DNA of 64,000 nucleotides from the NCBI GenBank assembly GCA_951406725.2, contig OX597815.1:178684001-178748000 (forward strand). The letters are read 5' to 3'. The notes beneath the pieces were generated by a model. The model was not told where the DNA came from. It did no database searches and saw nothing but the letters and a program-made list of their open reading frames with translations. The first letter of the stretch is position 1; the number at the start of each line of letters is the position of its first letter. Shown piece after piece: positions 1,620 to 61,345 of this stretch. The stretch comes from Octopus vulgaris (lineage: Eukaryota). The position numbers and the translations under genes were made by a program.

Positions 1620-3171
1620 CAGCAGAGGTGTTTAAAAACATAGCTTCAAAAAAAAAAAAAAAAGATTGTAGCTGTACATATTAAAATAGATATTTAGCCA
1701 AATAGGGCTGAAAGTAAATAAATAACAACAATTTCAATATACAAGTTTAAATGATAAATTCATGCAGATTGAAAGAAAAATTCACAGCTGTGGAAGAATT
1801 TACAAGCACATACATGTGTACAGTTTGGTGCATATATGTATGTATATTTCTCACACACATTAGAGAGAGAAAAAATAAAGAAAGAGAGTGGAGAAGTAGA
1901 AGCAACCCAGAAGCATTAGTTTGTGATGCACCATGTGACACCATGTTAATAATATAGTTTGATAGAAGCCTTAAAACCAAACCTATGGAAGACTGGGTGT
2001 CGTCTATTGACAGCACGCAACAGAAAAAAAGTAGTTGTTAGCAGGAAGATCTAATTTCAATGAGTTAGTCAATAAGAGGATAGTATATACTCTATAGATT
2101 TCAAGATAAAACAGCTCAACACAACAACAGCAACAAAAACAACAACACTCACTTCTATCTTGGTAACAAGATAACAATATTTAAACTGCAGGTTTTAGGT
2201 TAGAAGCAAATGTGATCTGGCTCAATGGATATGATATTGGAGTTTTGTGCATGAATTGGGGTACAGCCTGCTGTTGGCTGGGTTTCTAACTTTTATCTCT
2301 GGCCATGCTGGGGCACCACCTTGAAAAATTTTAGCCAAACATATCAAGCCCAGAACTTTAACTTTTTTTTGTTTAAAGCCTGGTACATATTCTATTATCC
2401 TCTATTTGCTGAACCACTAAGTTATGAGAATGTAAGCACACCAACATAGGTTATTAAGTGGTGAAGGGGACAAACAGACACACAATGGACTTCTTTCAGT
2501 TTCCATCTACCAAATCCACTCACAAGGCTTTGGTTGGCCTGAGGCTATAGTAGAAGACATTCACCTAAGGTGCCACGCTGTGGGACTGAACCCAGAACCA
2601 TGTGGTTGGGAAGCAAACTTCTTACCACACAGCCATATAGAACACTATATTTAAAAGTGCCATAAACGAGTTAACCATCAGGAGTAGGAAGCAGATCATC
2701 AAGGGATTGTTTAGCTTTGAACCAGAGATCACCTGTTATATGCCTACCTGCCTTGGCTTTGGACATAGGTTCCAACTGCAATGGTCAACTGTATGAGTGA
2801 GTGAAGGTGTGTAACCATTCATGAAAAGCCTGTCATCACACAGACTCCAACACCTGGTGCCATGTGAATAGAGCTCTCATTCGTTCATAAGATAGTACTT
2901 AACTGTAAATAGGATTAGGGGCAGTTCATACGAGGAAACAGGGGCAGCAATCTGCAAATTAACAAGTGTTTGCTGCTAACTTATGACGCTGAGTTCAAAA
3001 CTGTCTTAGAGACCAATAGAGACAAAATGAATATTCTTACACTAAACCTTTTTAAAATCAATTCCATGATTCCTACACAGTTCATTTTCCTGATATTTGT
3101 ACATAATTCAATGCACCTTTCATGAATTGTAGTGCACCAGAGAACTATACACAATGATTTCATTATTATTA

Positions 3172-3378
3172 TTTTCTTTGCACAGCTTCTAATGCTGGAG
3201 ATGTACTACGGTGTTAGCTGTCCACTACCAGCGAACTAAGGTAACTCCTCTTATTTTACGAGCACCTTCCTGAGTATTCGAGCAGTTCTAAGCAGTGCTG
3301 TTTTCTGAAAGTGCTCCACCCTTATTGCAGCCCCTATTTGTTCCATGCATTTCTCAAGATTTTTACTCACAGCTCCAC
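3172..3378 (-). mobile_element. R4/Dong-clade (RLE-type) non-LTR retrotransposon 3' end
   Basis: The minus strand translates GAVSKNLEKCMEQIGAAIRVEHFQKTALLRTARILRKVLVK*, the typical R4/Dong C-terminal motif (QKxxLLGTARILRKVL). It ends in (TAA)n. Confidence 0.75.
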
Positions 3379-4941
3379 GCCGCCTTCATTATATCATTAT
3401 TATAAAAACTTTGAAGACTTGAACTCAGGACTATGAATTAGGAGCTTCTTTAATTAGAGAGAGTATGTCTGCACGTTTCTTAAGATGCCAGTGTCGCCTG
3501 ATTGGCCCCCCCCCCCATGCTGGTGGCACATAAAAAGCACCCACTACACTCTCGGAGTAGTTAGCGTTAAGAAGGGCATCAAGCTGTAGAAACCTTGCCA
3601 GATTAATTTGGAGACTGGTGCGACCTCCTGACTTGTGGTTGTGATCTCTGTGCTGGTGGCACATAAAAAGCACCATCTGGATGTGGTCGATGCCAGCCCC
3701 CTTGCCTCAAGGGCTTCTGTGCCATGCCACATAAAAAGCACCATCCAAACATGGCCAATGCCAGCACTGCCTTGACTGCTCCCATGCCAGTATCACGTGA
3801 AAAGCACCCACTACACTCTCAGAATGGTTGGTGTTAGGAAGGTCATCCAGCTGTAGAAACATTGCTAGATCAGACTGGTGCCTGGTGCAGCCTCCTGGCT
3901 TGCCAGTCCCCAGTCAAACCGTCCAACCCATGCCAGCATGGAAAACGGACGTTAAATGATGATGATGATGTTTTGTGTAGCAGCAACTGAGACTCCTTCG
4001 TTCAACAATCTATTTAAAGTCCTTAAAATGGTTTAATTTCTAAATATAGGATGCAATAAAAATGAGATGGCCATAGACAAGATCATATTTGTCCAAAGAT
4101 CAGCCAGAAAGTCTACCAATGCAAAAGTGACTGGATCCACTCAGAAACGTGTAAGCTTGGCAAGGTATTGTGTTTTACGTAATGATTAAGTGTAATTAGG
4201 AGGGTCAATAAATTAGGTGGGTCAACCATAGCATTTTCCCCAGAAACTTCTCGTTGCCAAATATTGTGACTTCCATGGAGGTGCAAACACAATTATTCAC
4301 ACAACCAAATGTTAGGAAAGTTATCTTCTCCAATCTCTTTTAACTCTTTTACTTGTTTCAGTCATCTGACTGTGGCCATGCTGGAGCACTGCCTTTAGTC
4401 GAAGAAATCAACCCCAGGAATTATTCTTTGTAAGCCTAGTATTTATTCTATCAGTCTCTTTTGCCGAACCGCTAAGTTACGGGGACATGAACACACCAGC
4501 ATCGGTTGTCAAGCAATGTTGGGGTGACAAACACACACACATATAGGAGTGTGGTAAGTAGCTTGTTCACCAACTACATGGTTCCAGGTTCAGATCCACT
4601 GCATGGCACCTTGGGCAAGTGTCTTCTACTGACCAAAGCCTTGTGAGTGGTTTTGGTAGAAGGGAACTGGAAGAAGCCCATCATGTGTGTATATATATAT
4701 ATATGTATATATATATATACATGTATGTATTTGCACCCCCCCCCCACTATCACGTGACAATCGATGCTGGTGTGTTTATGACCCCATAACTTAGCTGTTT
4801 GGCAAAAGAGAGCAATAGAATAAGTACTAGGCTTACAAAGAATAAGTCCTGGGGTTGATTTGCCCGACTAAAGGTGGTGCTCCAGCATGGCCACAATCAA
4901 ATGACTGAAACAAGTAAATGAATAAAAAAAATTAGTAAAAG

Positions 4942-5135
4942 TCATGTTTCACATACAAATACGTCGATGTAAACAATGTGATTTCTAGACAGCAAAAACA
5001 GGTAAATGGGTGAATGTGCATATTTCAGAAGTTAAGGAGCAACGACGCCTGAACTGTGCATTATACACTCATTACCTGTTTTTGCTGTCTTTAATCACAT
5101 TGTTTACAAAAGATGTATTCGTATTTGAAACGTCA
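4942..5135. repeat. Imperfect ~190-bp inverted repeat (foldback/MITE-like)
   Basis: TGTAAACAATGTGATTTCTAGACAGCAAAAACAGGTAA pairs with TTACCTGTTTTTGCTGTCTTTAATCACATTGTTTACA. Confidence 0.8.
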
Positions 5136-8059
5136 CAACTTGCAGTGCTGACCCTGTAAGAAATCTGTAGAGATAGACTCAGAAATGAAAACAAAGGCAC
5201 AATATTGACTTATAAACCTTATATTTGGGGGTATATTACTGTTGCACAGTCATATAAGGTAGGAACGGGGGAAACCCCTGTCCGTGGGCACAATTGCACC
5301 TGCAGGCTGGTATACTTGTATGTACAAAATATAGTAAATTTTTCAATTATGAAATTTATACAATACTCATCTGCCTCTTTGCGACAAAGGTCGCGTTTCC
5401 ACTACGATTTAAAACGGTCAGACTCGAACAGAAAATCGTCCGGTAATTACCATTTGAATGGAAATTTTGTTTTCACTATAAAACACATATTGCTAGGTTT
5501 ATACCACCCGCTTAAGACCTAACTACACTCTGGCTGAAAACTATAGAATACTTCATAAGTAATATAAACATCCAAAATTTAGTGGCAGCGTTAATGAAGA
5601 TGTTACATGTTAATTTAATGAGTTAAACTTATCTTTATTAACGTAAATCGAATTATACGTATATATACACAAGATTTACACAGATATAAGAATTAGAACT
5701 TGTGATCTGCCTTGGGCCCTTTTCTTTGGAAATTTCTGCCCACCGCACTAAAAAGTTTCCCCACCCCTGATTTAAGATGAACCTACCAGCAATGAAAATG
5801 ATCTTAGTGCTTAAAGCTCGACACAAATTACATGAATGAGCAGTTTTTAAATTCTTTAAAATAATTTCTCTTATAAATACATGATGTGGTAGGGAGGGAG
5901 AAGCAAGACAAGTTGGAAAATATCCTCTCCCAAAAGTGAAGCAGCCAATTCTAACTATGAGATCAAAACAATCATCATCATCATTGTTTAACGTCCGTTT
6001 TCCATGCTGGCATGGGTTGGACGGTTTGACAGATCTGGGAAGCCAGAAGGCTGCACCAGGTTCCAATCTGATTTAGCAAAGTTTCTACAGCTGGATGCCC
6101 TTCCTAATGCCAACCACTCCAAGAGTGTAGTGGGTGCTTTTACGTGCCACTGGCATGAGGGCCAGTCAGGTGATACTGGCAACAACCACACTCAAAAAAG
6201 TGTCTTTTACGTGCCACCTTCATGGGAACCAGTCCGGTGGCACTGGCAACGACCATGCTCAAATGTTGCTTTACACCTGCCACTGGCACATGTGCCAGTA
6301 AGGTGACACTGGCAATGATCACACTTGAATGTTGCTTTTTACATATCACCGGCACAGGAGCCAGTCAGTGGCCCTGGCAACAATCACGCTTGGATGGTGC
6401 TTTTAACATTGAAGTAAGGGAGGTGATAAGGGGCTCATACAAATTAGCTAAGTAGACAGGGTAGAAATATCCACATACACTAAAGACAAATTATTAAGGG
6501 ACACCTACATACATTTGCACACAATGTAATAAAATGTTTTGTTTTTTTTCCCCTGCCTTTTTTGTTAGTAGAGAAAACTGTTATCAATGTAGTAAATGAA
6601 GCTGATTAACAGTGAAAAATTAGTAAAGGTGCATAAAAACTTTCTTTTTAATTTTTGTAGAAGGTTTCTAAGCAACCTTGACGAAGGAGCACCACAAGCT
6701 TAAATATGAAGTAGTAAATGTAGATAAAACTCTGTAAAGGGCTATCACTCACCAAATGTACTTAACGTATTCACTTGTTTATACATTAATAATCTAAGAA
6801 TTTGAAAGAAAATATATGTTCAGCTTTGCTAACACACAAACATTGGTGCAAACACACAGACTTCTTCTGACGTGTCGAGATATTATTTAAAACTGTTTCA
6901 TGCAGGTGAAAATTTCATAATCTGAAATGTTGAACTTGCTGATTTCAAAACCCCTGCATTTCCACAAAATATACACAGATCAAAGGGTTTGAACTCAGTG
7001 CTAACAAAACACTTAAACCCATTTTGCAATCTTATTTCATTAAAAAAAAAAAAAAAAAACTTTTTTCAGTTAATTTTGAAAATCAAGAATTTGGAAGAAT
7101 TTAGAAAATTATCCAATGTTTCATTAATTGATATATTAAATTTAAAAGTGTGATGGAATAGTTTCTCTTAAATATTATGGTATATCACAGTATTGACCAG
7201 GCTATCAGATATCGCTGTACATCGCTGGTCACAATGCGCTTGGCATTGTTTTAACTTTTGAATGACACTACTCAGCTGGCGAGGCGAGCAGGCCAACATT
7301 GCCGTTGATCAGAATGACCAGTCTATCACAGGGTGACCCATTTACAACTGAATGGACTGGACCTATGGGAAATGAAGTGTTTTGCTCAAGAACACAACAT
7401 GCCGCCCAGTCTTGGAATTGAACCCTGATCGAGCAGTCATGGGTGCAATATTCTAAACATTCATTTAAATACAAATGCTTTGAAACAGACGACTGTGTAA
7501 GGGACACTCACAGAGCTATTTATGCAAGGTTCTCATTTTTAACAGTAAGCTGGTGTCTACCCAGGGTTAAACAGGAAGAGGTTGGGGTTTTGAGAAAGAT
7601 GAAATGATACAAAGAGCCTCTACTCTTCAACCCTTAAGACAACTCCATGTTGGTTCAGTTGCAACAATTATTTCCAAATGAAGCCAATACTGTTAATTCT
7701 TATGCTTAATTACAAGAATCAACATCACAGATTTAAGAAAATATCAGGAGTTCAGCCACTGATAGGTGACAGAAGATTTTAAAAAAGGGGTTTTCTAACT
7801 GAATGGAGAAAGAGACAGAGAGAGAATCCCTTTCAATTTCACAGTGCATATTGTATATAGACTTATTTCAACCCATTTCTATTGTGAATGTAGGGGAAAG
7901 ACGAATGGATGTATAGCAATTTCTGTTGACTAGGCACACACAAGCAATGGGTGTTGAGATAATACATTTCCTAAATGCACTATTAACATAATTAAAGCAA
8001 GATGGTTATGCTCACAAATAATAATTGCTCACACAAGCAGACAGCAAACAAATTTGATA

Positions 8060-8860
8060 GTGAAAAGCACACATGCTCTCTCCACAGCGCTAATATCAAG
8101 AAGTCTTCTTGTGAACGTGACCTGGGCATTACTGTCAGCGGCGATTTGCACTGGACAAAGCACATCTCTAAAATTGTCAAGAAGGCTGAGGGTGTCTTCA
8201 CATCACTCAGCAAGACCTTTGTCAGCTGCTCTCCGGTTATCTATTTAAGACTGTATATGGCCATGGTACAGCCACTCTTGGAATTTGCATCACCAGTCTG
8301 GTACCCCTGTACAGCTCTGGACATTGACTTCTTGGAAACTGTTCAGAGTCATGCTACCAAGTGAATACCCTCCATCACGCATCTACCATAATCTGAACGC
8401 CTTGCTTCCCTGGGCATAGATACATTGAAACTCCGGCATCTGGCAACCGACTTGCTAAACACCCACAAAATTATTAACCATCGTACCAACAACCACTTTG
8501 AGCACCTTTTTGAGCTTCTTATGTCTAACACATGTGGGCATGCCTACAAAGTCAGAAAACAGCACAGCTCCCATGACTTAGGGAAACATTTTTGCACACT
8601 CAGAGTTGCTGAAGCATGGAACAAACTACCTGCATTAGTTGTTAGCTGCCAAGACATTGCATCCTTTAAAACTGCCATGCTTCCTGAAATTCGCCAACAC
8701 TACACCTCATATCCACCCCACTCCATGCACATGCACACATGTATATCGTGACTCGTACACTGTTCACTTTCCTGACATTTGTACACAATTTTATGTACTG
8801 TACATGCACCTTTGATGAGTTGTAGTGCACCTGAGCACTATACACAATAATTTCATTATC
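8060..8860 (+). mobile_element. CR1/L2-group LINE 3' fragment (RT C-terminal region + 3' UTR), decayed
   Basis: ERDLGITVSGDLHWTKHISKIVKKA...VQPLLEFASPVWYP...LETVQSHATK, then HFCTLRVAEAWNKLP, with in-frame stops. Ends in tttcattat. Confidence 0.88.
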
Positions 8861-9756
8861 AAATTAATTGAATGGATCCATACACAAAACTAGAGCTTTT
8901 TGATACAAGCTCAAAAAGATGTGATCACAAAATATAAAGGAACAGAACCAAAAGTTTCAAAAATATTTACAGAAACATTCTACACATTATGCCAAATATG
9001 TCAGCCCAAGAATTCTAATCAAAAGTTTTCTTTAAAATTTGCTGCAAAACAATTCCGAATATATCAATTTCTGGAAATGACAGCTTACAATATTGACTTG
9101 AGAAGCAACCTCAACGGTTTAAAATGTATGTATAGCAACAGGTAATAGTTTACATGATATCCTTTCCTTTTATCTATGTCACAACGGAAATATAAAATTA
9201 ATGATAAATCCCACGAAATGGAAAGAATTTTCCATTCAGCCTTGTGTCTACGAATCGAGGATCAATTCAAGGGAGACAACCAATGGCTTACTTGATAAAC
9301 TATTTCTCAACATGACAAGATTGAGCAACCAACGATAAAAGAACCGAGATTGGCGACTTTCTAATGAGGTTTCCTAATTAGAGACAGACTCTGGCATCTA
9401 ACTAGGACGTAGGAGTTCGATTCTGGCAGGGTTAAATTAGACGCAATGTCTATATTTTAGGTGCTGGGTAACTAATTTGGTTACAAGTTGCAACTTTGCT
9501 TCCTTAATATTGGTAAAAGAAAAAAGTTCTGCATTTAAGGGATTTTATTATTCTTTTACATGTTTCAGTCATTTGACTGCGGCCATGCCGGTGCACCGCC
9601 TCTAGTCGAGCAAATCGACCCCAGGACTTATTCTTTGTAAGCCTATTAACTTATTCTATCGGTCGATTCTTGCCGAACCGTTAAGTTACAGGGACATAAA
9701 CATACCAACCTTGGTTGTCAAGCGATGGCTGGGGGGAACAAACACAGACACACAAG

Positions 9757-9795
<39 letters not shown>

Positions 9796-10135
9796 GACAG
9801 GCATCTTTCAGTTTCCATCTAACAAATCCACTCACAAGGCTTTGGTCGGCTGGAGGCTATAGTAGAAGACACATGCCCAAGGTGCCATGCAGTGAGACTG
9901 AACCTGGAATCATGTGGTTGATAAGCAAGCTACTTACCACACAGCCACTCCTGCGCCTATTATTATTATTATTATTATTTTCAAAAAAGCCATTAAATCC
10001 TTAATTTTCCTTGGCTGATAGTCAACATCTAATCTTGTTCTATGATTGAGCAATTAGCAGTAGAAAGGGCAGCCAAACAATAGATAAACCCTACTAATTG
10101 AACCCCTTTTTAATTCAAACAAAGTGAATAACTTA

Positions 10136-10398
10136 TTTACATTATTTACATTTGGTGGATTTTTGTCCTCATCTTGTTTGTTGTTAACACAACATTTTGG
10201 CTGATATACCCTCTAGCCTTCATCAGGTGTCTTGGGGAAATTTCAAACCTGGGTTCTCATTCCTAAGGTATTTTTTAATGTTATTATTATTATTATTATT
10301 CAACTCACTGCCTGGAATCGAACTCGGAATCTTAGGGTTAGTAGTCAGCGCTCTTAACCACTACACCATATACCCATGGGCATATGGCATAGTGGTTC
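10136..10398 (-). mobile_element. Copy of the tRNA-head/hammerhead foldback element (one full arm plus the start of the second)
   Basis: Same sequence as 22630-23130. Palindromic centre CCCATGGG at 10373-10380; HHR at 10186-10231(-) with GAAA changed to AAAA. Confidence 0.8.
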
Positions 10399-21393: not shown

Positions 21394-21530
21394 CAAGATG
21401 CAATATATTATGGCAACCTTTGCCAATTGTTTAAGGCTAAGTTTGCTTAAAGCTCGTAATTTAGCCTCTTCAGCTCGTATGGAGGCATTGTATGATAATC
21501 GGGCTATGACTGACTCTTCGGCATAGATAT
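21394..21530 (-). CDS. SLC35F5: SLC35F5 coding exon 6
   Basis: DIYAEESVIARLSYNASIRAEEAKLRALSKLSLKQLAKVAIIYCIL resembles recalled human LSRMSY...KLTATQVAKISFFFCFV. ctttcag acceptor, TTG|gtaagg donor, 137 nt, phase 1-0. Confidence 0.93.
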
Positions 21531-22629
21531 CTGAAAGGAAGAGAGAAAAGGAAAGAATCAGGGCCATGGAAATTCAATTGGGGACAAAGACATGCAAGAA
21601 TACATCCTTATTGTTGCACAGTTCTGAAAGCATCTTCTGTTCATTAAGGATGAATAACTACAAGGTATCAGCTGGCACTCCATTGATTATGATGATGTGG
21701 GTTACAGATGATCTGATCAATGGAACAGCCTGCTCGTGAAATTAATGTGCAAGTGGCTGAGTACTCCACAGACATGTGTACTCTTAACGTAGTTCTCGAG
21801 CAAATTTAGTGTGACGCAGAGTGTGACAAGGCTGGCCCCCATTGAATTACAGGTGCAACTTATTTTTGCCAGCTGAGTGGACTGGAGCAACGTGAAGTAA
21901 AGAGTCTTGCTCAAAGAAATAACACACTGCCAGGAATTGAACTCACGATCTTACAATTGCAAGCCGAATGCCTGAACCATGAAGCCAACATGCCTTCACT
22001 AGCATTGAGATAATGTTGATAGAAATACATTTCCCACTCAACTGCTTCTTTAGTCATACGACCAGTTCAGTGTCATTCACAAAATGCTCCAGATGACTAA
22101 AGACATTACATTATTCATCAAGCAAATCTTGTGACATTCCACATATGACTGGGTAACATCTATACACATGTTCTCTCTCTCTCTCTCTCTCTCTCTGTGT
22201 TTGTGTGTGTGTGTGCGCGCGTGTGTAAGAAATATGCAAGTACATATCCTATGTTGATATATGTGCATATATAATCAATGATATAAAATTCAGATAATAC
22301 ACCCACTTTACTGACAGTTATATAAATGCATCTTCTCCCTGACTTATGGTCTCTTAGACAACTCCTGCATGTATATACATATACACACACACATGTATAT
22401 ATAACAATCAGATCATTCATTTTCCTCCCATGGCTGTGTAAGGGCTTTCTTCTATTTTCTCTTCATAACTCGACGAGGGCACGCGACACATTTATCGGGA
22501 GTTGCATGTATGGATCAAAACAGTTTGATTCAAATTCCTTGGTACTTTGAGTTTCAAAGAGTGATGCATATCCTCGGCTGTTGGAAATTTGAATTCAAAT
22601 TTCCATATATATAAATATATATTGCATTT

Positions 22630-23130
22630 AGTTACATTTAAAGGATATTTGTCCTCATCTTGTTTGTTGTTAACACAATGTTTCAGCTGATATATCCTCC
22701 AGTCTTCATCAGGTGCCTTGGCGAAATTTCGAACCTGGGTTCTCATTCCTGAGGTATTTTTTGATATTATCATTATTCAGGTTACTGCCTGAAATCAAAC
22801 TCAGAATCTTAGGGTTAGTAGTCCATGCTCTTAGCCACTAAGCCATGGCCATATGGTGTAGTGGTTAAGAGTGTGGGCTACTAACACCAAGATTCTGAGT
22901 TCGATTCTTAGCAGTGACCTGAACAATAATAATTATAATAAAAATAATAATAATAACAACAACATCGAAATATACCTTAGAAATGAGAACTCAGTTTCGA
23001 AATTTCTCCAAGACACCTGATGAAGGCTGGAGGGTATATCAGCTGAAACGCTGTGTTAACAACAAACAAGATGAGGACAAATATCCGTCAATTGTAAATA
23101 ATTCCTCATCTCTTAAATATAGAACTGTAT
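22630..23130. mobile_element. Foldback element: two head-to-head arms, each tRNA-like head + (AAT)n + hammerhead motif + tail
   Basis: The left arm (minus, about 22630-22845) and right arm (plus, about 22850-23130) are reverse complements. A box TGGTGTAGTGG, B box GAGTTCGATTC; HHR cores at 22672-22717(-) and 23012-23057(+), both with substitutions. Confidence 0.8.
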
Positions 23131-23264
23131 ACTTTGATAGGTTTCGGCCATTATTGGCCCATGCCATGTCTAACTTAATAGCACCAGGCCACTAAATAAA
23201 GTTAGATGAGATAAGAATGTAGATTTGTCACAATAAGCTGGTGAGAACAAAGAAAATAACTTAC

Positions 23265-23327
23265 CAGAAAGTTGACGAATTTCTAAAAGATTATTAAACC
23301 GCACTATTGTTGTGTTCTCCCGGTCTG
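23265..23327 (-). CDS. SLC35F5: SLC35F5 coding exon 5
   Basis: (A)DRENTTIVRFNNLLEIRQLS resembles recalled human RVRFSNIMEIRQLP. Acceptor tttttcagCAG (tandem), donor TG|gtaagt, phase 1-1. Confidence 0.92.
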
Positions 23328-23589
23328 CTGAAAAAAGAGAGAGAGAAAATAATGGTTTCAAATTTTGGCACAAGGACAGCAATTTCGGGGGAGGAGGTAA
23401 CTTGATTAAATCGACCCCTGTGCTCAAGGGGGATTAATTTAATGCACCCTGAAAGGAAGAAAGGAAAAGAAAATGATTCTGCCAGCTTGCCGCCTTATTG
23501 AGGGAGAAAATATCAGCTCAAAGACATGCCATTCTTCTTCTTCTACTACTACTACTACTGTTGGTTGTTTTATTAAGGTGGTGTATATT

Positions 23590-23770
23590 AATAACATCAA
23601 CGATACCTTAGGAATGAGAACCCAGGCTCGAAATTTCCCCAAGACACCTGATGAAGGCTGGAGGGTATACCAGCCGAAACGTTGTGTTAACAATAAACAA
23701 GATGAGGACAAATATCCATTAAATGTAAATAATGTACATAATTCCTCATCTCTTAAATATAGAACTGTAT
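23590..23770 (+). mobile_element. 5'-truncated arm of the tRNA-head/hammerhead element
   Basis: Matches the 22970-23130 portion of the right arm, including the intact HHR and the tail ...cttaaatatagaactgta. Confidence 0.8.
23641..23688 (+). ncRNA. Minimal type-I hammerhead ribozyme motif, intact core
   Basis: GACAC-CTGATGA-a-GGCTGG[agggtata]CCAGCC-GAAA-CG-TT|GTGTT. Stem I is GACAC/GTGTT, stem II has 6 bp, stem III is the palindrome AACGTT, and GUU cleavage is predicted after 23683. Confidence 0.8.
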
Positions 23771-25046
23771 TTACCTTACCTCATGTATATTTTTTAAGAC
23801 AGTAGGACATAACAGGAGGAAGATTTGGTGGCTATTCCAAGCAGATCAAGCGACCACATTAGGACCCTTCCCTCACTGGCTTGTACAAGTAATGTTATTG
23901 AGGCAGCTGACCGGCAGAGGACAGGGGAATCAGGAGAGTGTCAAAGCATTCGGCGACAGTTATTTCCCTTCACATTCTGAGTTCAAAGCCAAGCTGGCAG
24001 GATTTATCATTACACATTCTTTGTGGGTCACTGAATTAGCATAATTGATTGAATTAACAAGCTCTCTCTCCTTGTACCAATGTGAGAAATCATTATTGCA
24101 GCAGATGTAGTTGTGCTATTAAGTTCTCAGTGAACAGATGTCAATGGTGTTAAAAGACATACTTTACACTCGTTTCAAATTTTGGCAGAAAGCCCACAAT
24201 TTCAGGGGGAGAGGTAAGTCAATTACATCACCCCCAGGGCTCAACTGGTACCCTCTTTATCTACTCCGAAAGGACGAAAGGCCAAGTCGGTCCCAACAGC
24301 AATTGAGCTCAGAATGTAAAACAGACAAAATGCTCCTAAGCATTTCGCACGATGTGTTAATGATTCTGCCAGCTCATCACCTCAGGAGATACTTTATATT
24401 GTTACTGAAATTCTTAACCCAAGAAAATTCCCTCCACCCATCACCAGAGGGGGTAAATTTAAGGATTTCAATGAAGAGATTACTTTTAGGCTAAACATTT
24501 CTTTACAGCTCTATATTTGAGATATGAGCAATTATGTACAGTATCTAGATTTGACGGATATTTGTCATCATCTTCTTTCTTGTGAACACGTTTCGGTTGA
24601 TATACGTATGTATAGAAGACCTTGAGGCATTGATGCTGGACTGAGAAGTGTGGCGGCTGGGTTATGTTGCCGTGGCCTAGGTTGGAACCTGGCCCTAATC
24701 TTTTATTCTTTCACTTGTTCCAGTCATTGGATTGCAGCCATGCGTGTGTATCCTTGTGTCTGTACTTGTCCTTCACCATCGCTTGACAACCGGTGTTGGT
24801 TTATTTATGCTCCCATAACTTAGCAGTTCACCAAAATGCAACTAATAGAATACATATGAGGCTTTACAAAATAGAAAAAATATAATGGGGGGGTCGATTC
24901 ATTCAACTAAACCATTGAAGGCAGTACTCCAGCATGGCCACAGTCCGATGAATGAGACATGTAAAAGCTAAATCAATTAAACTACTACAACATAATAAAA
25001 TGAAAAAATAAAATATTTGAAAAAAAGTAGAAAAAGAAAATCTTAC

Positions 25047-25116
25047 CAGATAAATCATCCGATTCTGTGGAATTGCATTTATCGTCTGACTTGAGTGGCA
25101 CGAAAACTGAATCACC
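25047..25116 (-). CDS. SLC35F5: SLC35F5 coding exon 4
   Basis: ttttctcctccag|GGT...CTG|gtaaga. GDSVFVPLKSDDKCNSTESDDLS resembles recalled human SEPLYVPVKFHD. 70 nt, phase 0-1. Confidence 0.85.
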
Positions 25117-26034: not shown

Positions 26035-28807
26035 CTGAAATAAATAATTGTCATTGTTAATGATAACGATAATGATTTCTGAAATTAGTAAAAGACTAAT
26101 GAGTTTTTGAAAAGAACATAATTAAATCAAGCTCAGTATTTCACTGCTACCATTTTATCAGATGCTAGAGGAATGAATGTTGAAGTTGACAATGATGGAA
26201 TATCCCCATAACTAGGGGTTGGGGGGCAGAGGTACTAGAAAGCATTTTGTATGGCATCGATGATTCTGCCCAATGTAAGGATAAGAAATAGCTGGCTACT
26301 GTGGGATTTGAATTCAGAATATAGTGAGAGCACACAAATGAATTGAGAGAAAAGTTAGGTATAAGAGGGAAAAGAAAAGATTGTACTGGCACGTGTGACT
26401 TTACTTGTACTTGTGATGGCGTTCAGCCAGGGCGGGTTGAGCCAGCTTCTTCTCTGGTCCTAACAGCATCACGAACCATGGTGTCCCACGCTCAACGGTC
26501 CCGTGCGAGGTCACTAGAGATAGCGAGCCATTCACGGTTCCATCTGTGCAGACCGACCACCTGCGGACCTGAGAGTTCGGAGAGGTCCTCTTTTATCGTT
26601 GTTACCCAGGTTTTCAGCTGCCCGCGTGTGACGCATATGGAGGATGTCAGTTATATACTAAGTGTCAAGTGGAAGAGGGAATTCTGGGAAGATATGGAGT
26701 AAAATAGCGAAGACTGATTTCTTAAGAACTAAAGAAGATGATAACAAAGGAAGGCCATGACAATGTGATATGCCAAGTTGAAGAAGACCCATCAAACCCC
26801 TGTGAGTATGGTAACACAGATATCAAAACCGGTGATGGTGGGAGGTTAGGAAGTGTTATATTGTACATTTGGGTCTCGCCCTCCCTCCATATTTAGGTCC
26901 CCATCTACTACCAGTCTACGCTCTTCATGTTCTGCCCGTATCCATCACCCTCTCTTCTAATTATTGCATCACATCCTTATTGCACCACTTGCTTAACAAA
27001 TGATAGCAATGGATCTTCTGTCTATATCCAATACCCCTACCATCAAGCACCTCCTCTCTCTTTCCCCTATAACTCATTGATACTCCCCCCCCTCTCTCTC
27101 TCTCACATCATGCAACTCTTCTGCTCTGCATCATTGCCTTTCCTTTTCTTACAATCAATCTCTCCAAAGTTGTGATTTTCAACCGTTTTAATATCTGGGC
27201 CAGATCCAAAACATGGATCTTTTTTTAAGGGGCTCATTTAAGAGTACCTTCAATCATTGGGCTTGCAAAGACCTATTGAGATAAGTGAAGTTGTTGTCGT
27301 GGCTGATGACAGTACTGCCTGATTGGCACCTGTGCCAGTGGCACGTAAAAAGCACCATTCGAGCGTGATCATGGCCAATGCCACCAGACTGGCCCCTATG
27401 CCGGTGGCACATAAAAAGCACAATCCAAGTGTGACCGATGCCAGTACAGCTTGACTGGCCCTCATGCTGGTGGCATGTAAAAAGCACTCACTACATTCTC
27501 AGAGTGGTTGGTGTTAGGAAGGGCATCCAGCTGTAAAAACATTGCCAGATCAGACTGGAGCCTGGTGCAGCCTTCTGGCTCACCAGCCCTCAGTCAAACT
27601 GTCCAACCCAATACCAGCATGGAAGGCAGACATTAAACGATGCAAAGGCGGTGAGCTGGCAGAAAACATTAGCACGCCAGGTGAAATGCTTAACGGTATT
27701 TCGTCTGCCGTTACGTTCTGAGTTCAAATTCCGCCGAAGTCGACTTTGCCTTTCATCCTTTCGGGGTCGATAAATTAAGTACCAGTTACGCACTGGGGTT
27801 GATGTAATCGACTTAATCCCTTTGTATGTCCTTGTTTGTCCCCTCTATGTTTAGCCCCTTGTGGGCAATAAAAAAAAAAAAAGACATTAAACGATGATGA
27901 TGATGATGATGATGGGCCACACCAAAAAGTAAAGCACAAAGAAAATTTATACTCATAGACGGAAAACTGTCAGAAGGATGCTCAAGGGCCAAATACAGTC
28001 CTAGGGCAGTAGTTGAGGAGGGCTGTTCTACACACATTACTCCTTCCTTTATCACTCAGTGTTGATGTCTACCACTTTTTATCTTCCAGCATCCTGCTTA
28101 CCTCTCTCCATTCACTCTTTACCTCCATCACACCACAAATACCATATTGCTACTCAATCCCCCACCCCCCGCCAACAAGCATGTCACTGCCCATCACTGT
28201 CTCCTTCCATTCTTCCCTCCTCTCACTTCTAGAACTTTCTCCTTTCATACTCTTCTCTTACCATCACCATCCCGATTTTCTCTTCTATCCACCTTTTCAG
28301 TCATGTTGCCTTGAGATAGCAAAGACAATGCAAGACAGAGAGGATATTTTTGGGTCCTTCTGGGTACAAGGTAACCCCTCTCGTACTCAGCACCACAATA
28401 GAATGTACACAGTGTACGCTGTATGGCAAACACATGGAGACAATGTAGGGTAGAGAAAACAGTCTTGCTGAGAACAAGGGACCTTTCTAGATCCCACAGT
28501 CGGTTTGGGGTTGGTTTCTACAGCTGGATGCCCTTCCTGATGCCAACCACTTTACAGAATACTCCACTGGGTGATTTCTATGTGGCACTGGCATAGGTGC
28601 CTTTTACATAAGCAATCCCAGTACATTAGTGGAGAAATGTCTAAAGTCAAACTTGCAAACAGCTATATTTATCTTGGGTCTTTTAAAGAGAATTTAAGAT
28701 GAGTCTGTCAGCTGCCAAAAACATCAGATATAGAAATTAATTTGAAATGTGATGAAATGTTCTTGCAAACATCACATTTTACTGAAGATTCTAAAGGCTG
28801 TTCTATG

Positions 28808-29362
28808 AGCATATGGCGTAGTGGTTAAGAGTGTGGGCTACTAGCCCCAAGATTCCGAGTTTGATTCCAGGCAGTGACCTGAATAATAATAACATCAAAT
28901 AATACCTTAGGAACGATAACACAGGTTTGAAATTTCCCTAAGACACCTGATGAAGGCTGGGGGGTATATCAGCCAAAACATCATCATCATCATCGTTTAA
29001 CATCTGCTCTCCATGCTAGCATGGGTTGGACGATTTGACTGAGGGCTAGCGAACCAGATGGCTGCACCAGGCGCCAGTCTTGATCTGGCAGAGTTTCTAC
29101 AGCTGGATGCCCTTCCTAACGCCAACCACTTCGAGAGTGTAGTGGGTGCTTTTACGTGCCAGTCAGGCGGTACTGGCGACGACCTCGCTCGAATCTTTTT
29201 ACACATGCCAACGGCACAGGTGCCAGTAAGGCGACGTTGGTAACGATCCCACTCGAATGGTGCCTCTTACATGCCACAGGCACGGAAGCCAGTTAGCCAC
29301 TCTGGTTGTGTTAACAACAAACAAGACGAGGACAAATATCTGTCATATGTAAATAATGTAAA
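28808..29362 (+). mobile_element. tRNA-head/hammerhead element arm interrupted by an RTE-type insertion at 28981-29305
   Basis: Head GCATATGGCGTAGTGGTTAAGAG..., HHR 5' half up to 28980, resuming as TTGTGTTAACAACAAACAAG at 29306. Confidence 0.8.
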
Positions 29363-30973
29363 TCTAAAAGCTGTTGCCCACAAAAGGATTTGAACCCAGC
29401 ACTGTAAGGAAAAGACAAGATTTGCTAACTACACACAATGATTTCGGTGCATTCAGGAGTATGTTGGCCTTGCTTGCCTGTCGTCTGTTTACATCAAGCT
29501 AGACAGACACAAGAACAGCTAAAGAGATTAGTGAAAGACACAGCAGTTATGATGATGTGATAGGAACTGCTGACTCTACAGCCTAGAACTAGCAAGCTGC
29601 TGTTTTGGTTAGCTGCTGTAGAATAGCCACATAACAGTAAATAAGTGGGAGAAAAGGAAAAAAAAAACAAAAAACAACAGTGACAACTCTATATAAAGAG
29701 ACTTTTTTATGTAGCAGTATTATTTCCTTTTTCAGTATAATTATTGATTTTTTTTTTCTTCCAGTAACACCATTCTGTGTTGTGTCATTCATTTGACAGA
29801 CATTTGTGACATTCATTATTATAGCAATGAACAGCTAGAATCGTTAAAAAGGAATATCCCAACAAAATAATAGTCAAATGAATGGAACCCAAAAGAGAGG
29901 AAAGAATATCGTCTCTGTTCTGTTTTTCTTTATCAGCTTCAATTATTTTTTTTTCTTCTTATCAGGAGTTTGACTTGCTAGAAACAGAAGCCAAATCTTC
30001 TAACCACACTTTACCATTTAAAAATAAGGCAAGTCATTGGATAAATTGGTCTTACATAGGCCTAAAAAAAAAAAATCACAGTTGGATTGATTTGGACTGG
30101 TGCTCTGCGGGTTCTGATGACAAGGGTTCTAGTTGGTCCGATCAAGAGAATAGCCTGCTCATGAAATTAACATGCAACTGGCTGAGTACTCCACAGACAT
30201 GTAGTTCTCAGGGAGTACCAGCAGGACACAGAATGTGACATGACTGGCCCTTTTGAATTACTGGTACAACTCATTTCTGCTAGCTTACTCTTCTTGTTTC
30301 AGTCATGTGACTGTGGCCATACTGGAGCACCGCCTTTAGTCAAGCAATTCGACCCCAGGACTTATTCTTTGTAAGCCTAGTATTTATTCTATCGATCTCT
30401 TTTGCCGAACCGCTAAGTTACGGGGACATAAAACACACCAGTATCGGTTGTCAAGTGATGTTGGGCAGACAAACACAGACGCACAAACACACACACATAT
30501 ATATGCATATATACGACAGGCTTCTTTCAGTTTCCGTCTACCAAATCCACTCATAAGGCTTTGGTCGGCCTGAGGCTATAGTAGAAGACACTTGCCCAAG
30601 GTGCCACGCAGTGGGACTGAACTCAGAACCATGTGGTTCGTAAGCAAGCTACTTACCACACAGCCACTTCTACGTGGCCTAGTGGACTGGAGCAATGTGA
30701 AATAAAGTGTCTTGCTCAAGGACACAGCATGCTGCTGGTAATTAAACTCAGGACCTTACAATCGTAGGCAAACAACTTAACCACTAAGCTACTTAATATT
30801 CTTCCCTTTCACATTTCTTTTATGGTAAACCAATTCCCTTTCAGTCCCTCGCCCCTGTTGTTTATGTCATTCGTATCCAAGGTTATTATGGAAAGATTAT
30901 CATATCCACTTCTTTTGCGATAATAATCCTTTGATTTTCTTCTTTCCATCTGCTTCTTTCTGACCATCTTTAA

Positions 30974-31194
30974 CCCTTTCATTACTGTATTTATTTTGAG
31001 ATGCTCCGTATTTCTTTCAATTAATTTTTAAAATAACAAATAATTTAATAAAATAACTTAGTTATCATTCAGCTAGTGTTAGGAACCTTAATTGTGACTA
31101 AGGTTTGGTGGAAGATTTTAATTCAAAACTTATGAAAACAAGACATTTGTACTTAGAGCCAGAGGTGGTTTCAGCCAGGTTAGTTTCAAAAGGG
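30974..31194. mobile_element. piggyBac-type MITE family A
   Basis: TTAA|CCCTTT...AAAGGG|TTAA. Other copies: 16355-16557, 16578-16728, 31226-31441, 36724-36943, partial from about 49450. Confidence 0.85.
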
Positions 31195-31225
31195 TTAAGA
31201 ATTGTGTCTCTATTATATATTTTAA

Positions 31226-31441
31226 CCCTTTTATTACCATATTTCTGTTGAGATGCTCTGTGTTTCTTTCAATTGATTTTAAATATAACAAAGAATTTAG
31301 TAAAATAACTTAGTTATCATTAAGCTAGTGTTAGGAATATTAATTGTGACTAAGGTTTGGTGGAAGATTTTAATTCAAAACTTATGAAAACAAGACATTT
31401 GTACTACAGAGCCAGTTTCAGCCGGGTTCGTAATGAAAGGG
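31226..31441. mobile_element. piggyBac-type MITE family A
   Basis: TTAA TSDs and CCC...GGG termini; near-identical to 30974-31194. Confidence 0.85.
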
Positions 31442-31512
31442 TTAAAGGGCTGACTTCCTCTGGAATCAAAACGGATTCACAGAAGGAAACCCAGACAATT
31501 GTTTTACTTTAA

Positions 31513-31732
31513 CCCTTTAGTGTTTAAACTGGCTGTATCCGGCCCAAATATTCTACACATTTTATGCTCAAACTGGCCAGAACATGCATCTCACACCTAC
31601 CCTGCAATGTCATTCTAAAAATAAGCAATAACATCTTTCCTATCTTGAAGGTACAAAATAATATCAGATAAATTTTTTTAAATGTGAATAAATAAGGGTT
31701 ACTGTTGACAAATTAATCTGAATGCTAAAGGG
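31513..31732. mobile_element. piggyBac-type MITE family B
   Basis: TTAA|CCCTTTAG...CTAAAGGG|TTAA. Other copies: 14977-15195, 34143-34359, about 42368-42589, and about 63887 to the window end. Confidence 0.85.
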
Positions 31733-32267
31733 TTAAATAATCCCAATATGTAAAAATAAGTCAGCTTTTCTTGGGAAATGTTTCGTACTTAACTGTTTTA
31801 CATACAGCTTTGAACCGTAGGATATGTCATGGCATACTAATTGTTTTAAAGGAAAGAAATTATTCTGAAGAGTGAACGGACATAAGACAAAACAGCAGAT
31901 TATGGTATTAGAGTCATTGGAGATTAATGCTAATCCACGTGCCCAGGTTACGTTCAATGTGGTCTTTTATTTGCTAAACAATATCCAGCAACCTTAGCTG
32001 GAACTGGAAACGGGAAAATCAAAGAAAAACAAAAATGAAATACAAAACAATATTAATGAATTATTGCTCATACTAATAAGAAGCAACCGTTCTTTGCTTT
32101 TATGAGTTATCAGATGCTACAGGTAGCATCTGAATTGGAGTTACATCCTCGAGAACGATTCTTGCTGGATCTTCATTTAACCCCAAGTTAAGCCACACAG
32201 AGTTTTGCCTTTCTCGTCAGAATTGTGAGTGACGGACGTCAATCACTGTGTTTCTAAAAAAAGCAGT

Positions 32268-38977: not shown

Positions 38978-39449
38978 ACTGTGGCCAAGCTGGGGGAAGA
39001 CTGGCCAAACTGGGGGCAGACTGGCCAAGCTGGGAACAGACTGGCCAAACTGGGGGCAGACTGGCCAAACTGGGGGCAGACTGGCCAAACTGGGGGCAGA
39101 TTTGCCAAGAGGGGAGCAGACTGGCCAAGCTGGGGGCAGACTGACCAAGCTGGGGGGAAAACTGGCCAAGCTGGGGGAAAACTGGCCAAGCTGGGGGAAA
39201 ACTGGCCAAACTGGGGGAAGACTGGCAAAACTGAGGGCAGACTGGCCAAACTGGGGGAAGACTGTCCAAACTGGGGGCAGACTGGCCAAGCTGGGGACAG
39301 ACTGGCCAAGCTGGGGGAAGACTGGCCAAGCTGGGGGCAGACTGGCCAAGCGGGGGGCAGACTGGCCAAGCGTGGGGGGGGGAGGCTGGCAAAGCTGGGG
39401 GCAGACTGACCAAGCTGGGGGCAGACTGACCAAGAGGGGGGGCAGACTG
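38978..39449 (+). repeat. GC-rich 20-bp minisatellite, about 23 copies
   Basis: Unit ACTGGCCAA(G/A)CTGGGGG(C/A)AG repeated in tandem. Confidence 0.95.
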
Positions 39450-43552: not shown

Positions 43553-43857
43553 TGCTAGAAACTGCAGCTAAATCACTCTCTCCAATCACAACCTACGAAC
43601 ATATCATAATGTAGTGTTAGAGATAATAAAAAAACAAAAACAAAAAGGAAAACCATAGCTCTTTTGGATCATGGGAGTCTTGGGGTTAATTAACAACTCT
43701 TCACCAAACTTTTAGACGTATAATATCAATAACAATCTCAAAATAGTTGCAAGTATAGTTTGGCTGCTGAAAATTTAAACCAGCTCAATTATAATTGGCA
43801 GCTGTTCATATTTATATATACATACATACATATATATTATATATATATATATGTATA

Positions 43858-43949
43858 TTTATGGAAATTTGTAATTATATATATATATGGAAACTTGTAA
43901 TTATATATATATATGGAAACTTGTAATTATATATATATATGGAAACTTG

Positions 43950-43986
<37 letters not shown>

Positions 43987-43995
43987 GGAAACTTG

Positions 43996-44030
<35 letters not shown>

Positions 44031-44039
44031 GGAAACTTG

Positions 44040-44074
<35 letters not shown>

Positions 44075-44081
44075 GGAAACT

Positions 44082-44124
<43 letters not shown>

Positions 44125-44211
44125 GGAAACTTGTAATTATATATATATATATATATATATATTTATGGAAACTTGTAATTATATATATATATATATATTT
44201 ATGGAAACTTG

Positions 44212-44250
<39 letters not shown>

Positions 44251-44259
44251 GGAAACTTG

Positions 44260-44296
<37 letters not shown>

Positions 44297-44309
44297 GGAA
44301 ACTTGTAAT

Positions 44310-44344
<35 letters not shown>

Positions 44345-44363
44345 ATTTATGGAAACTTGTAAT

Positions 44364-44394
<31 letters not shown>

Positions 44395-44413
44395 ATTTAT
44401 GGAAACTTGTAAT

Positions 44414-44444
<31 letters not shown>

Positions 44445-44501
44445 ATTTATGGAAACTTGTAATTATATATATATATATATATATATATTTATGGAAACTT
44501 G

Positions 44502-44540
<39 letters not shown>

Positions 44541-44549
44541 GGAAACTTG

Positions 44550-44592
<43 letters not shown>

Positions 44593-59612: not shown

Positions 59613-61290
59613 CATGACGGTGGGTCAGTAAAGTAAGTTACAAAACAAAAACAATGAATTGAGTGGTTTTGATCTATGATGGGCCTCAAAGGAAGTCCTC
59701 ACAATAACTCAGACATGATATTTAGGGGCATATTGAGCTATCTTTCTGTAACACTCCTTAGCATACCACTGGGTTGCCCTTATGTACTTGAATAGAGTAA
59801 GCCTTATACTAAATTCACTGGTCATTGTTGCTGCTATGCTGTTGCTGTTGAGCGAAGCGGTCTTCGTCCTCTTGGGAGAAGTCCGAAATGTGGTCCTTTG
59901 CTATTCGTAAGACCCGCAGAAGAGAAAGCAGGTCAACCCCCAACACCGAGAGCATCAACAGATGGATGAATGCACATCCAGGCTCAGCGGTTGCGTAGGA
60001 AGTTGGGGACAAGAAACAGGAAGAAAAGAGTGAGAGAAAGAGTACAACAGGCGTTGCCACCGCTCCCCCCTGCTGGAGCCTCGTGGAGCTTTAGGTGCTT
60101 TCACTCAATAAACACACACAACGCCCGGTCTGGGAATCGAAACTGCGATCCTCCGACCACGAGTCTACTGCCCTAACCATTGGGCCATTGCGCCTCCACT
60201 GTTGCTGCTATGAACCTCCTGGTAGCACAAAACCCTTTTTGGCAGCAAACCTAACATGTTGACCTGTAAGCAGTAAGAATAACAACTGATGCAGTGGCCC
60301 AGTTGCCAGCTATTCTTCTGGTGCTTGTGACAAGACAGAAAATGGTTGAATGGGAAGGAAAGGAATGAACAAAGACAATGCAGAGAAAAGAGGATTCCCT
60401 TTAGTTTTTGTCAAGGATAAGACGACCTTGTTATGCTGCGTCATGATAAAGAGCGCTTTGCACAATCTGTAAAGTGGTCAGAGAGAGAAAGGGCCCCCAG
60501 CCATGGAAACAATGCCAAAAATGAAAGAGCAGATGAAACATTTTGAAAATGTCAAGAAAGGAGCTAAAAATAAAAACTGACTCAGACTTTACTAATTTGT
60601 CTAATCAATGGCAACAAAGAGAAGCATGTAAAACAATGAAGAGAAAGCCAATTATAATTACCCCCCTCTCTCTCTCTACACACACACACACACTATATAT
60701 ATATATATATATTATACTTAAACAAAAATTCTCTTGTCTAAGAATAATAAATTTGTGCTCTACAAAAGTATGGAGTGACCCATTAGATTAATGTAAAGTT
60801 GTTTTTATTATAACATAAAAAACAAACATTTATATATATATGTATATATATATATATATAGTACAAATTAAGATAGGGGTTATGGGTGTAACCCACTATG
60901 GGGTATCATTATAGGCTGAAACAGCTGTAAGAAGTAATTTCTGGATTTCAATAATTTATAATATGACTTTTAAAATCTGTATTTGTATTATTATCTTATC
61001 TATTGATTTATGTAATATATTTTATGCATTTGATGTTCTCATTTGTAAAAATGAATAAATAATCTAACATTATAATATCCGTAAGTTGATGAACAAACTA
61101 AATTTGTTTCTCCATTTTCTCATTTGTATTATATATATATAATTCATAAATGAGGGCAAAGGAAAAGATTTCTAATGCCAAATATGCCGAAAAATTGGAC
61201 ATATTGTCCATTAACCATATAATTTTTTCACAATACGCACGCTACTCGAAAAAAGGTTGACAGACATTTCTAAAAAATTCCATTATTACC

Positions 61291-61345
61291 ATATCGGACC
61301 GATTTCAGAGTTAGCTACTAAGAGCCCTCTCTTCGTCAGTGATAC
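61291..61345 (-). ncRNA. Minimal hammerhead ribozyme motif inside a (TA)n-flanked insert
   Basis: gtatca-CTGACGA-AGAG...TTAG tag CTAA CTCT-GAAA-TCGG-TC|cgatat. Stem III is near-palindromic with a GUC site, and there is one mismatch at the base of stem I. Confidence 0.6.

What the first reader, a model, noticed from the sequence alone, without database searches (positions are those of the whole stretch)
23641..23688. Intact minimal hammerhead, antisense within an SLC35F5 intron
This copy keeps CUGAUGA, GAAA, a perfect 6-bp stem II, a 5-bp stem I and a GUU triplet. Stem III is only the palindrome AACGUU, the form that folds as a dimer with a second copy. A sister motif lies about 630 nt upstream on the same strand (23012-23057, but with GCU at the site), so an antisense transcript could form the dimer in cis. 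The extra A after CUGAUGA is a non-canonical insertion.
Basis: partly seen in the sequence, partly recalled or inferred. Interest (0 to 1): 0.72.

Follow-up and report, generated by a model that had tools for sequence, protein, structure and literature searches.

The report
Hammerhead in Penelope retrotransposon end repeat
This hammerhead-shaped motif is real, but it is one of an estimated 30,000 scattered end-pieces of a Penelope-type jumping gene in an octopus genome and likely does nothing for the host gene around it; the one unusual point is that the jumping gene's end repeat starts with a tRNA-like promoter, so it may be read by RNA polymerase III.

Summary
The motif at 23641-23688 is as described and lies antisense in an SLC35F5 intron. 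It is a headless, 5'-truncated copy of the end repeat (pLTR) of a Penelope/Poseidon-type retrotransposon: 2,211 exact core matches genome-wide, about 30,000 copies by estimate, with head-to-head pairs, the optional ~30-nt tail and target duplications. The extra A is the known hallmark of these hammerheads (113 of 116 copies). Stem III is ACGU. The 'perfect' stem II comes from a rare variant (4 of 116). About 14% of copies are equally intact, and the core decays as fast as its flanks. The cis-dimer idea fails: a coding exon lies between the two motifs, the sister copy has lost U16.1 and G10.1-C11.1, and it pairs with its own inverted twin. The hammerhead sits inside the element's own reading frame and would cut 70 nt after the ATG. 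The unusual feature is a tRNA(Arg)-like A/B-box head in the pLTR of a coding element whose sense strand has few TTTT runs, suggesting Pol III transcription. The scan noted this before on other DNA of this genome (e1-8669850); I retested it. Cleavage and Pol III use are untested.

The parts
23641..23688 (+). Minimal type I hammerhead, copy A (the finding); intact core, predicted cut after 23683
23592..23769 (+). Copy A: 3' part of the Penelope end repeat (pLTR); no tRNA-like head, only an AAT remnant before it; 7 of 178 positions differ from the family majority
23614..23769 (+). First 52 codons of the element's reading frame (ATG at 23614), running through the hammerhead; 50% identical over 44 aa to the N-terminus of a related 847-aa RT protein (P0003)
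23740..23769 (+). Optional ~30-nt 'tail' of Penelope elements (approximate start), present in copy A
   Evidence: PMC8557442, PMC11167929
22847..22921 (+). tRNA(Arg)-like head of copy B; A and B boxes each carry a mismatch in this copy
22961..23129 (+). Copy B pLTR 3' part with the sister hammerhead (23010-23057): GCU site, G10.1.U11.1, palindrome broken (ACGC)
22628..22846 (-). Copy C: inverted, tail-less twin of B (head 22778-22846, motif 22672-22719); sense in the host pre-mRNA but decayed (stem II mismatch, ACAU)
23265..23324 (-). SLC35F5 coding exon between copies B and A (alternative acceptor at 23327)
25047..25116 (-). SLC35F5 exon bounding the intron that holds copy A
21394..21530 (-). 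SLC35F5 exon bounding the intron that holds copies B and C
24504..24605 (-). Copy D of the same family, 5'-truncated inside loop II
10133..10375 (-). Copy E (head plus tail), core broken (G12 to A)
28809..29363 (+). Further copy (head 28809-28881; tail in two pieces, 28890-28979 and 29305-29363)

Best explanation
The motif is the minimal hammerhead of a Penelope/Poseidon-type retrotransposon's end repeat, left in this intron as a 5'-truncated copy that is likely inert. Shown: the full element is ORF (RT plus C-terminal endonuclease) - about 33 nt - tRNA-like head - (AAT)n - ATG - hammerhead - tail, and in partial tandems the tail runs in frame into the next ORF. Inferred: the element's enzyme starts reverse transcription at one of two sites at the tail (giving the two 3' end classes) and usually stops early or at the RNA's 5' end, which scatters short pLTR pieces such as A, B and C. 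Inferred from other Penelope elements: the ribozyme matters only in the element's own tandem RNA, where two copies on one strand can share an ACGU stem III, or the element's protein helps it fold. A cut there would fall 70 nt after the ATG and would separate the start codon from the rest of the ORF. After insertion the copies decay neutrally; A is intact by chance.
For: 2,211 exact core matches, control 0. Scaling exact counts by sampled match rates gives about 28,000-32,000 tails, 14,000 heads and 2,000 ORF ends. 3' ends are bimodal: 66 of 165 at tail position 135-155 and 80 of 165 at 170-179; 47 of 61 head-to-head pairs join one long and one short end. 26 of 41 such pairs share 8 or more flanking bases, against a median of 1 and a maximum of 4 in 500 permutations. 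26 of 30 loci picked by the ORF's C-terminus carry the head right behind the ORF. 26 of 30 picked by the ORF's 5' end carry the tail right before it, and the frame from the pLTR ATG stays open for up to 282 aa. A 569-aa copy matches RVT_1 (E 2.7e-6, 27.7 bits, just under the 29.6 cut-off) and 2,980 RT proteins. The same layout is described for Adineta Pen2a and Poseidon_Ac (PMC3846280, PMC11167929). No selection after insertion: non-CpG core sites differ from the majority at 110 of 1,276 (8.6%), sites outside the motif at 549 of 8,658 (6.3%); 16 of 116 copies are intact.
Against: Cleavage was not tested. The window's own B/C pair shows no target duplication (best shared run 4 nt), and none is apparent for A. 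Pfam GIY-YIG did not score on this family's C-terminus; the endonuclease call rests on motifs read by eye and on 3 of 120 listed homologues that carry PF01541. No tree was built, so the clade rests on domain layout. No copy with a complete intact ORF was found (longest open frame 569 aa among 150 listed). 5' ends do not pile up at the predicted cut (6 of 65 within 3 nt, P = 0.35, biased sample), so the genome shows no footprint of cleavage.
Confidence: 0.87

Rival explanations
1. The short copies are a separate tRNA-headed SINE: solo pLTRs are transcribed by Pol III from their own head and are copied in trans by the Penelope enzyme; A is a truncated copy of that SINE.
For: Heads outnumber ORF ends about 7 to 1. 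58 of 95 head-bearing copies start within 12 nt of the head start and only 9 reach more than 60 nt upstream. The pile-up holds in copies without a detected inverted neighbour (14 of 24). Internal initiation of reverse transcription (PMC11167929) would make the RNA's 3' flank irrelevant.
Against: The head is part of the coding element itself (26 of 30). No fixed diagnostic difference separates 83 solo from 49 ORF-linked heads (smallest p about 0.004 over 254 sites). Two copies start at the head and run on into the ORF. Solo copies are only slightly less diverged (head 6.1% against 7.7%; biased samples).
Confidence: 0.09
2. One reading: an antisense transcript holds copies B and A, they dimerise in cis and cut after 23683, with a possible effect on SLC35F5.
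For: A is intact, B is on the same strand 631 nt away and carries a promoter-like head. In an A/B dimer, A's site could in principle be cut by B's core through a 3-bp stem III.
Against: B has U16.1C and G10.1.U11.1. The dimer fold is -22.1 against -26.4 kcal/mol for two monomers, and the cis helices have probability 0.000. B's A and B boxes are mismatched, and a TTTT at 23363 lies before A. B pairs with inverted C in a longer transcript. A coding exon lies between the motifs. Even proper dimers of this kind cleave poorly in vitro (PMC4209133).
Confidence: 0.03
3. The motif is only a by-product of the protein-coding frame and not a ribozyme in this family.
For: It lies inside the ORF's first codons, and a related protein keeps similar residues there. 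No 5'-end pile-up at the cut. In Poseidon_Ac the hammerhead is not needed for insertion in vitro (PMC11167929).
Against: The family majority has all 12 core positions, both stems, the extra base and the ACGU palindrome, the published signature (PMC4209133). The Poseidon_Ac motif, also at an ORF start, cleaves when the protein is present.
Confidence: 0.01

Closest known systems
Minimal type I hammerheads of metazoan Penelope-like elements (Cervera and De la Pena 2014, PMC4209133; parts 1-2 of 4 read)
   Same: Long helix II, 4-5 bp helix I, unpaired base between A9 and G10.1, G10.1-C11.1, palindromic 15.2-16.2, thousands of solo copies, nearby copies on opposite strands; monomer inactive, dimer weakly active.
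   Different: No difference in the motif. Copy numbers here (about 30,000, some 14% intact) are above the 2,000-9,000 motifs quoted there, but were counted by another method.
Poseidon_Ac of the green anole (Frangieh et al. 2024, PMC11167929; parts 1-2 of 4 read)
   Same: Hammerhead overlapping the ORF start with the cut downstream of the ATG; two reverse-transcription start sites that define the optional tail.
   Different: Here the ATG lies upstream of the whole motif and the cut is 70 nt after it (26 there). No tRNA-like head is described there.
Adineta Pen2a and D. virilis Penelope structure (PMC3846280, passages; PMC8557442, passages; PMC2377424, abstract and one section)
   Same: Direct pLTRs plus an inverted 5' pLTR, 8-10 bp target duplication, 31-34 nt tail, pLTR holding the first codons, palindrome at the pLTR 5' end.
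   Different: Their promoters are described as TATA/Inr-like or LINE-like; this pLTR begins with a tRNA-derived A/B-box head.
TRIMp3 elements Cassandra, Helenus, Ajax (Kojima 2024, PMC10886601; passages)
   Same: A small-RNA-derived Pol III promoter inside a terminal repeat.
   Different: Those are short non-coding LTR elements, and the paper argues that their coding partners must use Pol II; here the head sits in the repeat of a 2.6-kb coding Penelope element.
Non-LTR retrozymes (bioRxiv 10.64898/2026.07.22.740005, parts 1-2 of 5) and Schistosoma hammerhead SINEs (PMC6765202, passages)
   Same: Short hammerhead-bearing units tied to Penelope pLTRs, or a promoter followed by a hammerhead.
   Different: Copies here are solo or head-to-head pieces of the coding element, not tandem arrays of a non-coding unit.

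Membership tests
Metazoan PLE minimal hammerhead | Core CUGANGA / GAAA / UH | tested here: met
   H17 is U
Metazoan PLE minimal hammerhead | Unpaired base between A9 and G10.1, and a G10.1-C11.1 pair | tested here: met
   A at 23655; G23656-C23675; extra A in 113 of 116 copies
Metazoan PLE minimal hammerhead | Long helix II, 4-5 bp helix I, palindromic 15.2-16.2 | tested here: met
   6 bp, 5 bp, ACGU
Metazoan PLE minimal hammerhead | Lies in the pLTR of a Penelope-like element | tested here: met
Metazoan PLE minimal hammerhead | Self-cleavage as a dimer or with protein help | not testable with these tools
   needs a bench assay; no 5'-end pile-up at the site
EN+ Penelope-like element, Penelope/Poseidon clade | Single ORF with RT | tested here: met
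   RVT_1 E 2.7e-6, just under the curated cut-off; 2,980 homologues
EN+ Penelope-like element, Penelope/Poseidon clade | C-terminal GIY-YIG endonuclease with CCHH motif | tested here: inconclusive
   Pfam GIY-YIG did not score; VYSIPCSC...YKGET...H...H read by eye across copies; 3 of 120 listed homologues carry PF01541
EN+ Penelope-like element, Penelope/Poseidon clade | No CX2-5CxxC linker between RT and EN (criterion from PMC8557442) | tested here: met
   read by eye in one copy, L209
EN+ Penelope-like element, Penelope/Poseidon clade | Placement in the clade by RT phylogeny | not tested
   no named reference sequences were at hand; no tree built
EN+ Penelope-like element, Penelope/Poseidon clade | Partial tandems, inverted 5' copy, optional 30-40 nt tail, target duplication | tested here: met
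   (family-wide; no duplication seen for the window's own copies)
tRNA-derived SINE | tRNA-derived head with A and B boxes | tested here: met
   all 48 full heads score above every shuffled or reversed control against 30 genomic tRNA loci, best isotype Arg in 38 of 48; A box exact in 77 and B box in 67 of 132 (box motifs recalled); Rfam tRNA model not hit; copy A itself has no head
tRNA-derived SINE | Non-coding element distinct from its partner apart from the tail | tested here: not met
   the head is inside the coding element's pLTR; no fixed diagnostic sites
tRNA-derived SINE | Transcribed by Pol III | not testable with these tools
   indirect signs only
Non-LTR retrozyme | Tandem repeat units each with a complete hammerhead | tested here: not met
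   no tandem array at this place; sampled copies are mostly solo or head-to-head

The most novel reading that the evidence does not exclude
A protein-coding Penelope retrotransposon that captured a tRNA(Arg) promoter into its end repeat and is transcribed end to end by RNA polymerase III: RNAs start just before the head, read through a 2.6-kb body kept free of TTTT terminators, and carry a ribozyme inside their own first codons that removes the start codon when it cuts. Every solo end repeat would then be a ready-made SINE, showing a SINE being born from its own motor.
Probability: 0.4. Interest if true: 0.65.

Novelty: new variant of a known kind. Interest (0 to 1): 0.33.

Why it matters
The motif as reported is ordinary: a new member of a class described in 2014, with no sign of a host role. 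What could matter is the carrier. Coding retrotransposons are held to use Pol II and SINEs Pol III (PMC10886601). A coding Penelope element with a tRNA promoter and a T-run-poor body would break that split, would raise the question of how an uncapped Pol III RNA is translated, and would give a testable case for what Penelope hammerheads do, since the cut lies between the ATG and the rest of the ORF.

Tried and rejected
Independent SINE with an unknown partner: my reading until; dropped after tied the head to a coding element. Partner search through Pfam GIY-YIG: 50 loci examined belong to other Penelope families and none shares the tail as its own repeat (two held unrelated solo copies). A pattern for non-AAT upstream sequence gave 52 junctions and no coding partner. 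Rfam finds neither hammerhead nor tRNA; ARAGORN finds no tRNA in the window. Pfam, PDB and genome searches with single host exons or PF06027 gave nothing. 5'-end pile-up at the cut: 6 of 65, P = 0.35; 202 of 287 copies reach the tail's 5' end, and split or very short copies were set aside. T-run avoidance is not significant under a synonymous-codon shuffle (P = 0.16), and under a dinucleotide shuffle only 1 of 7 single copies is (P = 0.015). Eight related metagenome loci (34-42% identity) were too short or cut to judge a head; the relaxed tRNA scan on them was noise. RNA: no listed holder is on record as RNA, and only unstranded contigs could be laid, so strand, ends and level at copy A remain open; the small exon 23265-23324 is not among the pieces shown there and rests on the protein match. 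Lunse et al. (PMC5785218) is not held and is known to me only through PMC6765202. That GUU cleaves more slowly than GUC is recalled, not checked. No supplements were opened, and Repbase and Dfam could not be searched; the family or its head may be recorded there.

Full report
Observation. The 48-nt motif is present as written: stem I GACAC/GUGUU, CUGAUGA, an extra A, a 6-bp stem II, GAAA, C, GUU. The cut would follow 23683. The host gene is SLC35F5 on the opposite strand: one exon is 100% identical to an Octopus SLC35F5 protein, that protein maps to exons between about 36690 and 10540, and contigs of three probable-RNA runs from three studies join four of them. A coding exon at 23265-23324 lies between the finding (copy A) and its sister (copy B), so they sit in different introns. 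Stem III of a dimer is ACGU, since the flanking A and U are core residues 14 and 17. Rfam does not see the motif.

It is a repeat. A 221-nt query gave 2,302 candidates, the best 92-95% identical. The 35-nt core pattern has 2,211 exact matches and its control none. Exact 21-mers give 10,251 matches for the tail, 3,681 for the head and 974 for the ORF end. In samples not picked by these words, 43 of 116, 30 of 117 and 27 of 58 copies hold them, and 8 of 116 hold the core pattern; this scales to about 28,000-32,000 tails, 14,000 heads and 2,000 ORF ends. The ORF-end sample was picked by protein likeness, so that figure may be low. The window alone holds about eight pieces.

The repeat behaves like a Penelope end repeat. 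Among 165 tail copies in 89 loci and the window, 66 end at position 135-155, 80 at 170-179 and 19 elsewhere; 47 of 61 head-to-head pairs combine a long and a short end. 26 of 41 such pairs share 8 or more flanking bases, against a median of 1 in permuted pairs; the window's own B/C pair does not. These are the inverted copy, optional tail and target duplication described for Penelope elements (PMC8557442 and PMC3846280, passages).

The coding partner. My first reading was a separate SINE. An earlier scan note (e1-8669850) said the unit is the end repeat of a coding element, and I tested that. Some heads share upstream sequence, which is the C-terminus of an ORF. Of 30 loci picked by that C-terminus, 26 have the head directly behind it. 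A 569-aa copy matches RVT_1 and 2,980 proteins. It lacks the linker zinc finger, which points to the Penelope/Poseidon clade by the criterion of PMC8557442 (by eye; no tree). Pfam GIY-YIG did not score on it. At the other end, 26 of 30 loci picked by the ORF's 5' part have the tail directly before it, and the frame from an ATG inside the repeat stays open through the hammerhead for up to 282 aa. Copy A keeps that ATG at 23614, and its peptide matches the N-terminus of a related protein at 50% over 44 aa. The predicted cut is 70 nt after the ATG. Poseidon_Ac has the same overlap; there the ribozyme cut only with protein present and was not needed for insertion in vitro (PMC11167929, main text).

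Copy A is not special. Of 116 copies in 98 loci not picked by the motif, 16 are intact by the same criteria; the extra A is in 113; the sixth stem II pair is G.U in 102 and G-C in 4, so A's 'perfect' stem is a rare variant. Non-CpG core sites change at 8.6% and sites outside the motif at 6.3%, so there is no sign of selection after insertion. The extra base, long helix II, short helix I and palindrome are the listed hallmarks of Penelope minimal hammerheads, which were inactive as monomers and weak as dimers (PMC4209133, parts 1-2 of 4).

The cis-dimer model. B has U16.1C and G10.1.U11.1, so only A's site could be cut, through a 3-bp stem III and B's weakened core. Nearest-neighbour energies give -22.1 kcal/mol for A+B against -26.4 for two monomers (A+A: -29.1 against -32.0; tertiary contacts are not counted). 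In a 22847-23800 transcript the dimer helices have probability 0.000, and with upstream sequence B pairs with inverted C. A Pol III transcript from B's head would meet TTTT at 23363, and B's boxes are mismatched. The family copies that are sense in the pre-mRNA (C, D, E) are broken or cut short.

The unusual part. The repeat begins with a 75-nt tRNA-like head. All 48 full heads score higher against 30 genomic tRNA loci (six amino acids only) than any shuffled or reversed control, best Arg in 38; it does not fold as a tRNA. 58 of 95 head-bearing copies start within 12 nt of the head start, with a peak at -7; 20 start inside it, 8 within 60 nt upstream and 9 further up (duplicated loci removed). 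Two copies start there in unique flank and run into the ORF, and three join an ORF fragment straight onto a head start. Both fit an RNA whose 5' end is at the head. The sense strand has 19 TTTT runs in 57,640 aligned bases, each private to one copy, against 121 from base shuffles. One near-complete copy has 0 in 2,634 bases, while 11 other Penelope ORFs have 2-9 each. Against this: the synonymous-codon null is not rejected (P = 0.16), only 1 of 7 single copies is significant under a dinucleotide null, four copies gained a run at about one site near the ORF start, and a small hairpin at the head start could itself cause stops. Solo and ORF-linked repeats show no fixed differences, so a separate SINE is not shown. 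I found no paper on a tRNA-headed Penelope repeat in nine searches; Repbase, Dfam, subscription papers and supplements were not seen. The nearest analogues are the non-coding TRIMp3 elements (PMC10886601, passages).

Verdict. The motif is real and of a known kind, and this copy is most likely inert debris (0.87). The carrier element is a variant of a known kind, already noted by this scan; Pol III transcription of the coding element is plausible but unshown (0.4). Interest 0.33.

Noticed in passing
window 61290-61345, - strand: A second, unrelated hammerhead-like motif (CUGACGA, 4-bp or longer stem II, GAAA, then a longer possible stem III); a similar one lies in L042 near 3015.
   Followed up: no
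L037-L060, L130, L132: Another Penelope family with many intact 781-aa ORFs carries a U3-A8 core hammerhead-like motif about 1 kb after its stop codon; it looks recently active.
   Followed up: partly
L271, L272, L276, L284 (ORF +227/228); L274, L278, L281 (+153): ORF 5' fragments end at recurring positions and are joined to a further end repeat; in L271, L276 and L280 the join is at the head start, in L272 and L284 at or beside the predicted hammerhead cut. This may reflect end-to-end template jumps, RNA circles or self-insertion hot spots.
   Followed up: partly
window 23324-23327, - strand: Tandem acceptor (two AG 3 nt apart) at the small SLC35F5 exon; the protein record matches the shorter form.
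   Followed up: no
L178 542-5410: A 533-bp tandem array at over 99% identity, with an inverted unit, next to a copy of the element.
   Followed up: no
L171, L172, L173/L174 and L115, L117: Segmental duplications of several kb at 96-99% identity; counted once where noted.
   Followed up: partly
window 38982-39449 and 43808-44588: A 20-nt minisatellite of 23 copies and a 50-nt AT-rich array of 15 copies.
   Followed up: no
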